From: Arenicellales bacterium
GTDB taxonomy: Bacteria > Pseudomonadota > Gammaproteobacteria > BMS3Bbin11
Assembly (NCBI GenBank): GCA_029287855.1
Contig: JARFQI010000071.1
Location: forward strand, 1 to 40,223
DNA length: 40,223 nucleotides
Direction of reading: 5' to 3'
Translations under genes and position numbers: made by a program
Notes under the pieces: generated by a model
Told to the model about the DNA's origin: nothing
Databases searched by the model: none
The model's input: the letters and a program-made list of their open reading frames with translations, nothing else
Part shown: positions 18,021-40,223 of the stretch, piece after piece
Numbering within the stretch: position 1 is the first letter of the stretch
Layout: every line of letters begins with the position of its first letter

Positions 18021-18487
18021 AGATTCAATGAAACAGCAGGAGACTAAATTACAGCACATGTGAACTGAGGTTTAACACAAATTCATTTCAGGCAGCCACT
18101 GAAATCACTGTAACTCGCATTAACTGTAGCCAGATTTAACCAGCTGCTAAATAGGTGGTTTTTTCATACTAACTGAACAGATGCCACTCAAAATATTTAA
18201 TTAACTTACTCATATTCAATAAGTTAATTATTTACACATAGAAACACACCTGCCGACATCGAGACGCCAGGGGGTAAAAACGTTGCCAATCTATTGGCGT
18301 GAATAGTCAAGCTTCGCTGGTCATTTGAAAGTAGACTTATCGCTGAATTGGACTGCTTTTGCCGTTAAGAATTTTTATATTTACTGTATAAATGTAGTAT
18401 TGACTGGATATGTTAGAATAATCGGCTAGCCTATAAAGAGAAGCATTTTTTCGAGCAACAATTCCAACCAAACACCAGAGATCACGA

Positions 18488-37219: not shown

Positions 37220-38611
37220 TCAATTGCTCGCCATTTGCTTGCGCACTTTTCTGATAGCTGCCAGCACCTGGTCTGGTGCAGTTCCACCCAGGTGGTCACG
37301 CGCACGAACTGAGCCTTCGAGAGTCAACACATTGTATACGTCACCATCTATTTCACCGCTGAACTGCTGCAGACTCTGAAGCGGCATATCGGACAGATCA
37401 CATCCCGCCTGTTCTGCTGCCTGGACTGCTTTGCCTACAATTTCATGCGCGTCACGAAACGGAATGTCTTTCCGTACCAGGTAATCTGCAAGATCAGTAG
37501 CAGTTGAGAAACCACTGCTGGCAGCGCGATACATGGCGCCCGAATTTACTGTCAGTTGAGGAATCATGCCAGCAAAAACACGAACTGCGGCGGTCGCTGT
37601 ATCCAGGCTATCGAACAGTGGCTCCTTGTCTTCCTGATTATCGCGATTATAGGCCAATGGCTGGCCTTTCATAATCATAAAGAGCGCCATTAAATTGCCA
37701 ATCACGCGTCCGCTTTTACCTCGTGTAAGCTCAGCTACGTCGGGATTTTTCTTTTGCGGCATAATAGACGAACCCGTGCAGTAGGTATCGCTGATATCAA
37801 TAAAAGAAAATTGTGCAGATGACCAGATGATGAGCTCTTCAGACATGCGGGAGAGGTGAATCATGATAATGGCAGCCGACGACATAAACTCCATAGCAAA
37901 ATCACGATCAGAAACAGCATCAAGTGAATTTGCTGCAGGCGCGTCGAAACCAAGCAACTCAGCAGTGTAGTTACGATCAACAGGAAATGTTGTTCCTGCC
38001 AACGCGGCCGCACCAAGCGGCATTATGTTCATTCGATCACGGCAATCCGACAGGCGACCCAGATCACGCCTGAGCATTTCTACCCATGCCATCATGTGAT
38101 GGCCAAATGTAACTGGCTGGGCCACCTGAAGATGTGTAAAGCCGGGCATGATGGTATCGTATTCTGCCTCAGCAAGATCGAGTAGAGACAGTATCAGAGT
38201 CTTTAGCTCTGCACTCAGCCTGTCCACCCCCTGTCGCAGATAAAGGCGTATATCAGTAGCCACCTGGTCGTTACGAGAACGCCCGGTATGCAACTTCTTT
38301 CCGACATCACCAATGCTTTCTGTCAGGCGCGCCTCAATATTCATATGTACGTCTTCAAGAGTGCGGGACCAGCTAAAATCTCCTCGTAGAATATCGTCAT
38401 GTATCTGATCGAGGCCAGTGATAATGGCGTCACTCTCGGATGCAGTCAGCACACCGACCCTGGCCAGCATTCTGGCATGTGCCTTGGATCCCTGTATATC
38501 GACATCATACAAACGCTGGTCAAAAGATACTGATTCTGTATATTCCTCAACCAGCTGATCTGTTGCCGCTGTAAAGCGACCCTTCCAGGGTTTTTCTTGT
38601 TTACCTGTCAT
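37220..38611 (-). CDS. argH: Argininosuccinate lyase
   Basis: [32 protein letters not shown]. Confidence 0.97.
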
Positions 38612-38677
38612 TTCTATCCGTTTCCTCTGAAGATCACCGGATTATAACGGCACAGAGAGCATCATTAAATCCATCAG

Positions 38678-38745
38678 ACCGTTCATCATGATATATCAAC
38701 CGCTAGTCTGGCATATCTGGCTGCCCCCATTTAACTGACTAGATT
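38678..38745 (+). promoter_or_regulatory. Putative LytTR/AlgR-dependent promoter of ncRNA copy 1
   Basis: Direct repeats ACCGTTCATC (38678) and ACCGCTAGTC (38699), period 21 bp; -10-like TAGATT at 38740. Confidence 0.45.
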
Positions 38746-38751
38746 TAAGGT

Positions 38752-38845
38752 GAGCATTAACCTTGATCTGGTCTGTTCCCCTCATCAAGCTATACCCCAA
38801 ATCTATAACAGACCAGACCCTACCCCCTTTACAAGGGGGTTTTTT
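38752..38845 (+). ncRNA. Candidate small RNA, copy 1
   Basis: 11-bp stem TCTGGTCTGTT/AACAGACCAGA enclosing a 29-nt loop CCCCTCATCAAGCTATACCCCAAATCTAT, then a terminator; paralogous to copy 2; 5' end inferred. Confidence 0.6.
38822..38845 (+). terminator. Intrinsic terminator with no upstream + strand gene
   Basis: ACCCCCTT-TAC-AAGGGGGT-TTTTT. Confidence 0.8.
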
Positions 38846-39108
38846 AATAATAAATAACCAGTGATTTGGATATACCACATGAATATACAGAACCCGGGGG
38901 CTAATCACACGTCAACGGTCAATTACAATAAAGAATAAATAGAAAGAAACTGGATTGTTCAGGTAAAAATACGTGTTGATGAACAGAATAAAGATTAATT
39001 ATTTCGATTGTTTACTTGCAAAACGGTGTAAACAATGACAAAAAAAGAGACAGCAATGACTGTTTTTCCAGTAATATACCAATATACGAAAGACAAACCT
39101 GTCATAAG

Positions 39109-39176
39109 ACCATTCGTCTGCCCGATTCACCCTGTGATCAGCAAGTTTTTTATACCAGTGCCTCCTGTGGTAATAT
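39109..39176 (+). promoter_or_regulatory. Putative LytTR/AlgR-dependent promoter of ncRNA copy 2
   Basis: ACCATTCGTC (39109), weaker CCCTGTGATC 21 bp later, extended -10 TG-G-TAATAT (39168-39176). Confidence 0.45.
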
Positions 39177-39182
39177 CGTCAC

Positions 39183-39287
39183 CGTTAGTAAATAGCACTA
39201 ACATCCTGGTCCAGCAACCCTCATCTGATACACCCCCGACTACTGGACTAGAAGATTCAGACCCCTTGTTTTCAAGGGGTTTTTTTT
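39183..39287 (+). ncRNA. Candidate small RNA, copy 2
   Basis: 5' hairpin GTTAGT/ACTAAC, stem CTGGTCCAG/CTGGACTAG enclosing a 28-nt loop CAACCCTCATCTGATACACCCCCGACTA, then a terminator. Confidence 0.6.
39261..39287 (+). terminator. Intrinsic terminator upstream of the algZ-like gene
   Basis: ACCCCTTG-TTTT-CAAGGGGT-T7. Confidence 0.82.
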
Positions 39288-39350
39288 ATCGCTACTGCTA
39301 TCATGTTCATTGCCACACCTGAAGTCGATCTTTATGGTCGAGACACTCGA

Positions 39351-40223
39351 ATGAGCAAGAAACAAGCTAAAGCGACAGAGACAATAACGCCTCCTGACTA
39401 CACAACTTCTGTAACGGGTATCCTGTTGCTCGCAGCATTACTGACCAGCCTGGTCATAACTGCGGCTCGGTACAACACATGGAACAGCAGTATTATCCCT
39501 GACTTCAGTGCGCTGCTGGCTGCGAGCATTCTGATTGCAGTATCAGATGCACTGGTACTAAAACTTTTCAATCCAATCCTTAAATCGCGGCCACTCATCA
39601 TCAACCTGATCGCTGCTTATTTGCTGCTAATGTCAACCACATTTATTATTGGCTATGGCCTTTATAACCTTGTTGTTGACAATTGGTCATTTAAGATATC
39701 AGGCGACTGGGCAAAGATTTCACCAATGCAGGTTTTCATTATTGCCAGCATAAGCTATTTTATAGTGTTAATGGTTCTATTACAGAAATCAAAAACCAGC
39801 GCCATCAGAAAATCATTTCAGACCGCCAATCTACAGGCCCTGCAGTCACGTATACGGCCACATTTTATGTTTAACAGCATGAATAGCATTGCCGGGCTAA
39901 TAAGAAACAATCCTGAGATGGCCGAGCATGCATTGCAGGACCTGGCTGACCTGATTCGTGTACTGATGGCCGATGTTCGTAATCTGGTCCCGTTGGTAGC
40001 CGAAATAGAAACATCAAAACAGTATCTGAAAATTGAAAAACTCCGCCTCGGTGACAGGCTCAGCGTACAATGGCATTTAAAACATATACCAGAAAATTGT
40101 TTCGTGCCATCGTTGATTCTGCAGCCACTGCTGGAAAATGCTGTTTATCACGGTATTGAGCCCAGTTTTGGCGGTGGCGTTATTGATATAGACATGCGAG
40201 CTGACAAAGACACGGTAAAGGTC
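39351..40223 (+). CDS. algZ: LytS-type sensor histidine kinase AlgZ/FimS (partial, runs off the window)
   Basis: Not in the ORF track. Manual translation from ATG 39351 gives about four TM helices, then LQALQSRIRPHFMFNSMNSIA, YLKIEKLRLGDRL and LQPLLENAVYHGI; divergent from argH as in Pseudomonas; extended -10 TGCTATCAT at 39296-39304. Confidence 0.88.
   Translation, partial: MSKKQAKATETITPPDYTTSVTGILLLAALLTSLVITAARYNTWNSSIIPDFSALLAASILIAVSDALVLKLFNPILKSRPLIINLIAAYLLLMSTTFIIGYGLYNLVVDNWSFKISGDWAKISPMQVFIIASISYFIVLMVLLQKSKTSAIRKSFQTANLQALQSRIRPHFMFNSMNSIAGLIRNNPEMAEHALQDLADLIRVLMADVRNLVPLVAEIETSKQYLKIEKLRLGDRLSVQWHLKHIPENCFVPSLILQPLLENAVYHGIEPSFGGGVIDIDMRADKDTVKV

What the first reader, a model, noticed from the sequence alone, without database searches (positions are those of the whole stretch)
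38752..39287. Twin paralogous structured small RNAs hidden in the argH-algZ spacer
Seen: the 740-bp spacer contains two strong + strand terminators (38822-38845, 39261-39287) with no credible gene to terminate. Upstream of each is the same architecture in the same order: AGCA(T/C)TAAC (38753, 39194); a stem containing CTGGTC/GAC(C/T)AG whose inner pairs differ but stay complementary (TGTT/AACA versus CAG/CTG); a 28-29 nt loop carrying CCCTCATC and TA(T/C)ACCCC; then an ACCCC...GGGGT-U tract. Conserved loop sequence with compensatory stem changes is the signature of selection on an RNA. Established: exposed C-rich loops act as anti-Shine-Dalgarno seeds in several base-pairing sRNAs, and sibling sRNAs often lie in tandem. 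Inference: two sibling trans-acting sRNAs of about 95-105 nt that I cannot assign to a described family.
Basis: partly seen in the sequence, partly recalled or inferred. Interest (0 to 1): 0.85.

Follow-up and report, generated by a model that had tools for sequence, protein, structure and literature searches.

The report
Twin AlgR-linked small RNA genes
Two related small RNA genes lie just upstream of a two-component sensor operon and carry that system's own type of binding site in their promoters, so they are probably its regulatory RNA output and belong to an RNA family that is not yet catalogued.

Summary
Units A (about 38752-38845) and B (about 39184-39287) each have a 9-11 bp stem, a 28-29 nt C-rich loop and a strong intrinsic terminator. 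A covariance model built only from A orthologues finds 10 of 10 B copies.

They are not dispersed repeats. Each genome has one or two copies, always between argH and the LytS-type kinase gene algZ.

- 11 of 12 genomes of the window's order have it.
- 32 of 41 sampled genomes of a second gammaproteobacterial order have it, in the same synteny.

Across 50 distinct sequences the central helix is 97% paired, and 7 of its 9 pairs show double-sided changes. No Rfam family reaches its threshold.

New here: every copy is preceded by two imperfect direct repeats 12 bp apart, the LytTR arrangement. The first repeat starts 61-62 nt before the -10 hexamer. Their core matches the Pseudomonas aeruginosa AlgR site. 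AlgR, encoded next door, is the only LytTR protein found in this assembly.

Best reading: AlgZR-activated sibling sRNAs whose pyrimidine-rich loop pairs with purine-rich ribosome-binding sites. Discrete transcripts, AlgR dependence and targets remain unproven.

The parts
37220..38611 (-). argH (argininosuccinate lyase), transcribed away from the RNAs
   Evidence: TIGR00838 argH, 648.7 bits against a cut-off of 279.5. Pfam Lyase_1 plus ASL_C2.
38679..38687 (+). Upstream repeat 1 of the A promoter, CCGTTCATC (AlgR-type box)
   Evidence: Position. It is identical to the AlgR-footprinted czcR site quoted in PMC4787818 and matches 8 of 9 bases of the consensus CCGTTCGTC. A box at this fixed offset is present in 39 of 39 distinct RNA genes examined.
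38700..38708 (+). Upstream repeat 2 of the A promoter, CCGCTAGTC, 12 nt after repeat 1
   Evidence: The 21-bp period is the LytTR arrangement described in PMC4064291.
38740..38745 (+). -10-like hexamer TAGATT of A (inferred). No -35 hexamer is visible.
   Evidence: Conserved as TAGATT, TAGTTT or TAATTT in the orthologues. The tool's sigma-70 scan did not call it.
38752..38845 (+). Predicted sRNA A, about 94 nt. The 5' end is inferred from the -10 hexamer and the 3' end from the T-tract.
   Evidence: Fold. Model hits at 98 bits and 84.1 bits. Orthologues in 9 of 10 other genus genomes.
38767..38817 (+). Central hairpin of A: arms 38767-38777 and 38807-38817, 29-nt C-rich loop 38778-38806
   Evidence: Helix statistics.
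38822..38845 (+). Intrinsic terminator of A
   Evidence: 8-pair stem with 5 GC pairs, then a T-tract.
39110..39118 (+). Upstream repeat 1 of the B promoter, CCATTCGTC
   Evidence: It matches 8 of 9 bases of the AlgR consensus.
39131..39139 (+). Upstream repeat 2 of the B promoter, CCTGTGATC, 12 nt after repeat 1
39168..39176 (+). Extended -10-like element TGgTAATAT of B (inferred)
   Evidence: The orthologues read TGaTAGATT or TGaTAAATT at the same place.
39184..39287 (+). Predicted sRNA B, about 104 nt
   Evidence: Fold. It is 91-95% conserved in the genus. Model hit of 90.4 bits.
39184..39202 (+). 5' terminal hairpin of B: GTTAGT / ACTAAC, 6 bp
   Evidence: paired in 10 of 10 sequences but invariant there. 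The sister genus has a hairpin with changed bases at the same place (read by eye).
39206..39251 (+). Central hairpin of B: arms 39206-39214 and 39243-39251, 28-nt loop 39215-39242
   Evidence: (100% paired).
39259..39287 (+). Intrinsic terminator of B
   Evidence: 10-pair stem, then eight T.
39303..40223 (+). algZ-like LytS-family sensor kinase gene, cut by the window end. The start is at 39303 or 39351.
   Evidence: Pfam His_kinase PF06580, 80.8 bits. On the syntenic contig C162 it is followed by a 243-aa REC+LytTR regulator and then hemC/hemD-like ORFs.

Best explanation
A and B are two paralogous, separately transcribed small RNA genes. Each has its own activator-dependent promoter and its own intrinsic terminator.

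B is the ancestral copy. A single B-like gene sits upstream of algZ in the sister genus and in a second gammaproteobacterial order. A is a duplication specific to the genus.

Each promoter carries two imperfect 9-bp direct repeats 12 bp apart, centred near -69 and -48. This is the binding-site layout of LytTR response regulators, and the repeat core matches the AlgR site of Pseudomonas aeruginosa.

Inference: phosphorylated AlgR, encoded immediately downstream with its kinase AlgZ, activates both RNA genes. The RNAs would then be a post-transcriptional output arm of the AlgZR system.

Further inference: the invariant pyrimidine-rich loop, presented on a stable stem, pairs in trans with purine-rich ribosome-binding regions of target mRNAs and blocks translation. 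The U-tailed terminator would serve as an Hfq-binding module.

Shown: sequence and structure conservation, paralogy, synteny, and the promoter-box architecture. Inferred: the transcript ends, AlgR dependence, trans pairing and Hfq use. The targets are unknown.
For: **Paralogy and copy number**
- The A-only model R1 finds 10 of 10 B copies.
- Model R2 finds exactly two matches per genome in 9 of 10 other genus genomes. The own assembly gives four, on two syntenic contigs. The sister genus gives one.

**Synteny and spread**
- R2 hits 32 of 41 sampled genomes of a second order, covering 20 of 25 genera and all 9 families. All have one copy except G196, which also has a weak second match.
- Of the 30 loci fetched there, 30 have an argH motif upstream on the other strand and 29 have the kinase motif downstream.
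- Among metagenome AlgZ loci, 16 of 80 carry the RNA. These are all the loci with at least 47% AlgZ identity that include upstream DNA.

**Structure**
- Joint alignment A9 has 50 distinct sequences. It is 91.6% paired against 76.3% in shuffles, and 21 of 25 pairs show double-sided changes.
- The central helix is 97.3% paired, with 7 of 9 pairs changed on both sides.
- 0 of 500 shuffles reach any measure, and the slid controls reach at most 55.4% paired.

**Promoter**
- A CC[AG][CT]T[CT][AG]TC box lies at a fixed offset in 39 of 39 distinct RNA genes.
- The second order has the same tandem arrangement in 23 of 30 loci by regex. Only 3 other regex matches occur in 182,426 nt of those loci, both strands.
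- By eye, most loci there also show -35 TTGTTG and -10 TATGTT hexamers 17 nt apart.
- The tandem-box pattern occurs only 8 times in the own genome, and 4 of those are these promoters.
- The AlgR consensus CCGTTCGTC and the footprinted variant CCGTTCATC come from passages in PMC4064291 and PMC4787818. The review also describes LytTR regulators as binding two imperfect direct repeats about 12 bp apart.
- Only one LytTR-domain ORF was found in the own assembly, and it is algR.

**Independent gene rather than leader**
- The distance from the RNA's 3' end to the algZ start is 17-94 nt in the window's order and 30-396 nt in the second order.

**Hfq**
- An hfq gene is present in 10 of 12 genomes of the order.
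Against: - No transcript ends are shown. The only RNA-library data are low-depth contigs (2.5-4x) from one oligo-dT sediment study, 90-95% alike. They also cover the flanks and run past A's terminator, so DNA carry-over or read-through cannot be told apart.
- The sigma-70 scan called no promoter at either unit. Neither unit has a -35 hexamer, so the start sites are inferred.
- Within orthologue sets alone, covariation is not above shuffles: 299 of 500 shuffles match for A and 243 of 500 for B. Much of the family-wide signal rests on a few deep splits, and the alignments were fitted to the model.
- The single 9-mer box is not enriched genome-wide: 116 found against about 134 expected.
- The review notes that known P. 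aeruginosa AlgR sites are often not arranged as 12-bp-spaced repeats.
- The boxes of A lie only about 70 nt from the argH start, so they could also serve argH.
- No target above chance was found.
- Hfq was not found in the own assembly, which is 91% complete.
Confidence: 0.6

Rival explanations
1. B, and the ancestral single copy, is a cis-acting leader or attenuator of the algZR operon. Transcription would start at the AlgR-dependent promoter, and regulated read-through of the terminator would set algZR expression as autoregulation. The RNA would be a by-product.
For: In the genus, B's T-tract ends 15-17 nt before a conserved ATG in frame with algZ. No separate algZ promoter is evident there. 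One RNA-library contig spans 39109-39353 across the terminator.
Against: A has no downstream gene, only a variable 200-350 nt spacer. The distance to algZ varies from 17 to 396 nt across the family. The terminators are strong, with 8-10 bp GC-rich stems and 6-9 U. I looked for no conserved alternative anti-terminator pairing and found none. The loop sequence, rather than a switchable structure, is the most conserved part.
Confidence: 0.12
2. The RNAs act by binding a protein that recognises C-rich loops, as a sponge or decoy, and not by pairing with mRNAs.
For: The two C-rich motifs in an exposed loop are nearly invariant over two orders. No mRNA target emerged.
Against: No candidate protein is known or encoded nearby. 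There is a single loop per RNA, unlike the multi-site sponges recalled from the literature. In the second order, the first loop motif is complementary to a Shine-Dalgarno sequence.
Confidence: 0.1
3. The conserved features work at the DNA level only. Regulator sites would control argH and/or algZ, and terminators would insulate algZ. The RNA product would have no function of its own.
For: The boxes of A are about 70 nt from the argH start. Expression of a discrete RNA is unproven.
Against: Double-sided changes keep the central helix paired in 97.3% of cells. The unpaired loop is more conserved than the stems. The box-to-(-10) spacing is fixed relative to the RNA, not to argH or algZ. Insulation does not need these features.
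Confidence: 0.07
4. The units are REP/MITE-type repeats, or they encode small proteins.
For: They are inverted repeats with a conserved core, and short ORFs overlap both units.
Against: Each genome has only one or two copies, always at one syntenic locus. The orthologue alignments have 1-, 4- and 10-nt indels inside the overlapping ORFs.
Confidence: 0.02

Closest known systems
LytTR-controlled regulatory RNAs of Gram-positive bacteria: agr P3 / RNAIII of Staphylococcus aureus and VirR / VR-RNA of Clostridium perfringens. The RNAs are recalled from memory. AgrA and VirR as LytTR regulators that bind direct repeats are from the PMC4064291 passage.
   Same: A regulatory RNA gene lies next to a LytTR-type two-component system. 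Its promoter carries two imperfect direct repeats about 12 bp apart, just upstream of the core promoter.
   Different: No sequence or structural homology was detected, and no such Rfam family appeared. The host is a Gammaproteobacterium and the regulator is of AlgR type. The RNA is about 100 nt with one functional loop, not a large multi-domain RNA. Regulator dependence is untested.
AlgR-binding sites of Pseudomonas aeruginosa, at algD, algC, fimU, czcR and mucR (PMC4064291 and PMC4787818, passages)
   Same: The 9-bp core is shared: window box A1 equals the czcR site, and B1 matches 8 of 9 bases of the consensus. The gene neighbourhood argH / algZ-algR-hemC-hemD is also the same (the Pseudomonas gene order is recalled).
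   Different: Here the sites form a strict tandem with a 12-bp spacer at a fixed promoter position. The review says this is not typical of known AlgR sites. No AlgR-dependent sRNA beside algZ is mentioned in the passages I read.
Rfam RF02837 anti-hemB (Burkholderia RNA 7). The polA-linked C-rich-loop sRNAs ErsA, sX13 and Spot 42 are recalled only.
   Same: A hairpin with a pyrimidine-rich anti-Shine-Dalgarno-like loop is followed by an intrinsic terminator. Sub-threshold cross-hits reach 20-28.5 bits.
   Different: The score is below the 49.5-bit gathering threshold. The own genome has a separate RNA over the cut-off (51.3 bits) at another locus, downstream of polA. The loop motif and synteny differ. 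I did not examine that locus for tandem AlgR-type boxes.
Sibling sRNAs in tandem, such as PrrF1/PrrF2 and Qrr (recalled, no call)
   Same: Tandem paralogous sRNAs share a seed and a regulator-site architecture.
   Different: The regulator class, sequences and structures differ. Here the two copies are only about 73% alike, and A evolves much faster than B.

Membership tests
Rfam RF02837 anti-hemB | Covariance-model score at or above the gathering score of 49.5 bits | tested here: not met
   B scores 20.3 bits and A gives no hit. Relatives score 25.7-28.5 bits.
Any Rfam 15 family | A match reaching that family's gathering score | tested here: not met
   Window 38000-40223 at E up to 1 gave 2 sub-threshold hits. 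16 of the 58 member loci at E up to 0.1 gave 6 sub-threshold hits.
LytTR-regulator-dependent promoter | Two imperfect direct repeats of 8-13 bp about 12 bp apart, upstream of the core promoter | tested here: met
   39 of 39 distinct RNA genes in the window's order and 23 of 30 in the second order by regex. The definition is from PMC4064291.
LytTR-regulator-dependent promoter | Binding by the regulator and dependence of transcription on it | not testable with these tools
   Needs EMSA or footprinting and an algR mutant.
AlgR regulon (P. aeruginosa type site) | 9-bp core CCGTTCGTC or a footprinted variant | tested here: met
   A1 is CCGTTCATC, the czcR site. B1 is CCATTCGTC, 8 of 9. The single 9-mer is not enriched genome-wide (116 against about 134 expected). 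Only the tandem is specific.
AlgZR two-component locus | LytS-type kinase followed by a REC+LytTR regulator, beside argH and hemC/hemD | tested here: met
   PF06580 in the window gene. REC plus LytTR in the 243-aa ORF of contig C162. ORF order. The window itself ends inside algZ.
Hfq-dependent trans-acting sRNA | Intrinsic terminator with a U-tail, and an hfq gene in the organism | tested here: inconclusive
   The terminators are present. An hfq gene is present in 10 of 12 genomes of the order but was not found in the own 91%-complete assembly.
Hfq-dependent trans-acting sRNA | A discrete transcript and an identified mRNA target | tested here: inconclusive
   RNA-library contigs cover the units but show no ends. 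No target above chance was found.
REP / MITE repeat | Many dispersed copies per genome | tested here: not met
   One syntenic locus per genome.
Transcription attenuator (leader) of algZR | Fixed close position before the regulated ORF | tested here: not met
   The distance to algZ is 17-396 nt, and A has no ORF behind it. Alternative pairings were not examined.

The most novel reading that the evidence does not exclude
An ancient small RNA with a ribosome-like anti-Shine-Dalgarno loop is the main output of the AlgZR two-component system in at least two orders of Gammaproteobacteria. It would be wired as RNAIII is to Agr: the LytTR regulator switches on one adjacent RNA gene, which then reprogrammes translation of the regulon. 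In the window's genus the gene was duplicated, and the fast-evolving copy A would have taken on new targets. This would be a Gram-negative counterpart of the agr/RNAIII design, and would imply that part of what is called the AlgR regulon is post-transcriptional.
Probability: 0.3. Interest if true: 0.7.

Novelty: new member of a known kind. Interest (0 to 1): 0.55.

Why it matters
AlgZR (FimS/AlgR) is a much-studied regulator of pili, alginate, cyanide, c-di-GMP and virulence in Pseudomonas. Its signal and much of its indirect regulon are still unexplained, according to the review passages.

A conserved RNA gene physically and regulatorily coupled to algZR would give a direct, testable route for indirect AlgR effects. 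It is single-copy in 20 of 25 sampled genera of one order and duplicated in another lineage. It would also be a Gram-negative example of the LytTR-regulator / regulatory-RNA pairing known from agr and VirR.

It adds a well-supported family (50 distinct sequences, clear covariation, fixed synteny) to the set of uncatalogued bacterial sRNAs. It also supplies a clean natural set of canonical tandem AlgR-type sites, where the review notes that known P. aeruginosa sites often lack this spacing.

Tried and rejected
**Pattern scan of genome contigs.** My degenerate pattern was too loose. It returned 120 stretches in unrelated phyla, and none passed a fuller regex (0 hits).

**Expression.** Four oligo-dT RNA-library runs from one sediment study hold 10-22% of the sampled words.
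- Contigs at 90-95% likeness and depth 2.5-4 cover 38500-38679, 38711-38961, 38517-39000, 38857-39041, 39109-39353 and 39126-39287.
- One contig stops at B's last T (39287). Others run through A's terminator.
- Run X4 laid nothing.
- Contigs cannot show ends or strand, and DNA may be present, so this is no verdict.

**Target prediction in the own genome.**
- Duplex energies over seed-filtered windows gave only self-antisense hits and long bulged artefacts.
- 669 of 26,034 candidate starts had an 8-mer or longer complement, about the chance level.
- A bacteriohemerythrin gene (C110:982) has a 10-nt complement on its ribosome-binding site. No orthologue was found in the other 10 genus genomes, only paralogues at 39-41% identity in 4 of them. 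Rejected.
- A bipartite site in C9 lies inside the coding P-loop of an IspD-like gene. Rejected.
- No meaningful complementarity was seen in argH, algZ, algR or hemCD on C162.

**Sigma-54 promoter.** Considered by eye and rejected, because the GG/GC spacing is wrong and not conserved.

**Mixed A+B MAFFT alignment.** It misaligned the 3' arms, and RNAalifold lost the central stem. I replaced it with model-guided alignments.

**Wider spread.**
- R2 on a 150-genome class sample found 1 of 149 genomes outside the order, G123.
- R3 found nothing above 30 bits outside the two orders. 0 of the 25 loci fetched had the kinase motif, and several were cross-hits to anti-hemB-like RNAs.
- Loci L189-L193 have argH nearby and AlgZ identity of 33-39%. 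They showed no terminator upstream by my regex and no model hit.

**Other.**
- The window hit at 18061-18165 (16.4 bits) lacks the loop motifs and is taken as chance.
- Literature: 'AlgR' + 'sRNA' + 'argH' gave 0 papers. 'algZ / small RNA / intergenic region / argH' gave 53 papers at 3 of 4 terms; none of the 15 listed is about such an RNA. A 12-nt loop string gave 23 papers; none of the 10 listed looked relevant.

**Rows left out before counts.**
- / alignment A8 used 25 of the 28 window-order and metagenome member loci. I left out L010, which is near-identical to the window, and the 5'-cut L173 and L175.
- One search used the 39 distinct rows of 46.
- / alignment A9 used 40 of 58 member loci. 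The 18 left out were near-duplicates or cut loci, chosen by eye before counting: L010, L013, L015, L171-L178 except L179, L180-L182, L187, L274, L281, L284.
- One search used the 30 loci that fetched, out of 33 matches.
Full report
**Observation**

The 740-bp spacer between argH (37220-38611, minus strand; TIGR00838 at 648.7 bits) and a LytS/AlgZ-type kinase gene (from 39303 or 39351; PF06580) holds two units of the same design on the + strand.

- Unit A has stem arms 38767-38777 and 38807-38817, a 29-nt loop, and a terminator ending in a T-tract at 38845.
- Unit B has stem arms 39206-39214 and 39243-39251, a 28-nt loop, and a terminator ending at 39287.
- Both loops carry CCCTCATC and a (T/C)ACCCC motif.

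The scan found 5 terminator-like sites against 0.6 +/- 0.8 expected, all on the + strand. Both units fold as predicted, with z -3.35 and -3.59 and 0 of 200 shuffles as stable. The reverse strands fold about as well, so the T-tracts define the strand.

**Paralogy**

A and B are 73% alike in a pairwise alignment. A covariance model built only from ten A orthologues (R1) found all ten B copies at 31.6-40.4 bits, E 1e-7 to 2e-10 in 68 kb.

**Not a repeat family, not a known family**

In the own assembly (2.33 Mb, 203 contigs) only the window and one other contig match. C162 has the same argH - A - B - algZ order at about 80% identity.

In the window's order (12 genomes, one family, two genera), model R2 hits 11 of 12 genomes:
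- There are exactly two hits in 9 of the 10 other genus genomes. The miss, G008, is 71% complete.
- There is one B-like hit in the sister genus.

Rfam 15 gives only sub-threshold hits. These are Phe_leader at 23 bits and anti-hemB at 20.3 bits in the window, and Phe/Leu leaders, anti-hemB and ncS54 at up to 34 bits in 16 related loci.

**The family is much wider than the genus**

- Of 80 metagenome loci that encode AlgZ relatives, 16 carry the RNA. Thirteen have it in full: ten with A+B, and L183, L186 and L187 with a single B-like copy. L173, L175 and L185 are cut by a contig end. None of the 63 loci L188-L250 does.
- In a 150-genome sample of the class, R2 found one further genome, G123, at 38.2 bits. 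The hit again lies between a divergent argH and algZ.
- Centring on G123, R2 hit 32 of 41 sampled genomes of its order: 20 of 25 genera and 9 of 9 families. All have one copy except G196, which also has a weak second match.
- Of the 30 loci fetched, 30 have an argH motif upstream on the other strand and 29 have the kinase motif downstream.
- A third model, R3, built from both orders, found nothing convincing elsewhere in the class sample. This means 'not found in those searched'.

So B is the ancestral single-copy gene, and A is a duplication in the window's genus. B is 91-95% conserved there and A only 70-79%.

**Structure**

Within orthologue sets alone, pairing is kept (A 86.3%, B 100%) but covariation does not exceed shuffles.

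Over the family it does:
- Alignment A8 has 39 distinct rows. It is 90.8% paired against 82.1% in shuffles, 15 of 25 pairs show double-sided changes, and 0 of 500 shuffles reach these values.
- Alignment A9 has 50 distinct rows from both orders. It is 91.6% paired against 76.3%, and 21 of 25 pairs show double-sided changes. The central helix is 97.3% paired, with 7 of 9 pairs changed on both sides. 0 of 500 shuffles reach any measure, and the slid controls reach at most 55.4%.

Two caveats apply. These alignments were fitted to the model, and many cells inherit the same few events.

The unpaired loop is the most conserved part. In the window's order it reads CCCUCAU...ACACCCC. In the second order the first motif reads CUCUCCUU, complementary to a Shine-Dalgarno sequence, and it is followed by CACCCCCACCCC.

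**Promoters**

Upstream of all 39 distinct RNA genes of the window's order there is a CC[AG][CT]T[CT][AG]TC box. It starts 61-62 nt before a -10-like hexamer. A second imperfect copy follows after 12 nt.

- For A in the window, the boxes are at 38679-38687 and 38700-38708, and the -10 hexamer is at 38740-38745.
- For B, the boxes are at 39110-39118 and 39131-39139, and the extended -10 element is at 39168-39176.

No -35 hexamer is visible, and the sigma-70 scan called nothing there. This fits an activator-dependent promoter but is not proof.

The second order has the same tandem arrangement in 23 of 30 loci by regex, and by eye at least 4 more carry variants. Only 3 other regex matches occur in 182 kb of those loci. 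By eye, in the loci I counted, the first box again starts 62 nt before a TATGTT hexamer, and a TTGTTG -35 hexamer lies 17 nt upstream of it.

Passages of a review state two points. LytTR regulators bind two imperfect direct repeats about 12 bp apart, and the AlgR core is CCGTTCGTC (PMC4064291). A ChIP-seq paper footprints CCGTTCATC at czcR (PMC4787818), which is the exact sequence of window box A1.

The gene after algZ on C162 encodes a 243-aa REC+LytTR protein. It is the only LytTR ORF found in the assembly. The tandem pattern occurs 8 times in the own genome, and 4 of those are these promoters.

I infer that AlgR activates both RNA genes.

**Independent genes or leader?**

The gap between the RNA's 3' end and algZ is 17-94 nt in the window's order and 30-396 nt in the second order. 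A is followed only by a variable spacer. This favours free-standing sRNA genes.

In the genus itself a leader or read-through role for B cannot be excluded, because a conserved ATG in frame with algZ follows B's terminator by 15-17 nt.

**Mechanism**

Three features fit a trans-acting, probably Hfq-assisted, translational repressor that masks ribosome-binding sites:
- A stable stem presents an invariant pyrimidine-rich loop.
- A U-tailed terminator follows it.
- An hfq gene is present in 10 of 12 genomes of the order, although it was not found in the own assembly.

This last step is inference. My target searches gave nothing above chance. Expression data were inconclusive.

**Comparison with known systems**

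In design the system works like agr P3/RNAIII or VirR/VR-RNA, which I recall from memory. It is not homologous to them.

It resembles anti-hemB-type C-rich-loop sRNAs in outline but fails that family's threshold. The genome has a separate anti-hemB-like RNA over the cut-off (51.3 bits) downstream of polA.

Full-text searches found no description of an sRNA beside algZ.

**Verdict**

This is a real, conserved, uncatalogued sRNA family with a strong inferred link to AlgZR. The twin arrangement is a local duplication. My confidence is about 0.9 that these are functional structured RNA genes, about 0.65 that they depend on AlgR, and about 0.5 that they act by trans pairing at ribosome-binding sites.

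Noticed in passing
G000 contig C162:6762-7250 compared with window 38679-39287: The assembly holds two syntenic versions of argH - A - B - algZ at about 80% identity. Every other genus genome has one. The bin probably mixes two related species, despite its reported 0.12% contamination.
   Followed up: partly
G000 contig C80:1808-1897 (minus strand), locus L291: An RNA matches Rfam anti-hemB over its cut-off (51.3 bits). It is a hairpin with a UUCCUCCC loop plus a terminator, directly downstream of a polA-like ORF. Similar matches occur in 75 of 151 sampled class genomes, 9 of them over the cut-off. This suggests a widespread polA-linked sRNA.
   Followed up: partly
G000 contigs C4:2085 (+) and C199:20882 (-): A second intergenic place carries a tandem AlgR-type pair, CCACTCATC-N12-CCATTTGTC. 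It appears on two homologous contigs, between two minus-strand genes on C4. It may be another AlgR-controlled promoter, possibly for a short transcript. Nothing was identified downstream.
   Followed up: partly
window 39288-39353: The stretch from B's terminator to algZ is conserved. It includes an ATG at 39303 that would add 16 residues to AlgZ, and the extension is only weakly conserved as protein. The true algZ start and promoter are unclear.
   Followed up: no
window 18061-18165 (+): A weak hit of the A-only model (16.4 bits, E 0.006). It ends in a terminator-like GGTGG-T-tract but lacks the C-rich loop motifs, so it is probably chance.
   Followed up: partly
L257 (G123), about 110-130 nt upstream of algZ: In the second order's closed genome, a further AlgR-like 9-mer (CCGTTCGCC) and a TATAAT-like hexamer lie between the RNA's terminator and algZ. 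This suggests a separate, possibly autoregulated algZ promoter (read by eye).
   Followed up: no
G001 unit A (L017:1830-1948): One A orthologue carries a 10-nt AT-rich insertion (a TTA repeat) inside the loop, right after the first C-rich motif. The two motifs and the stem are kept.
   Followed up: no
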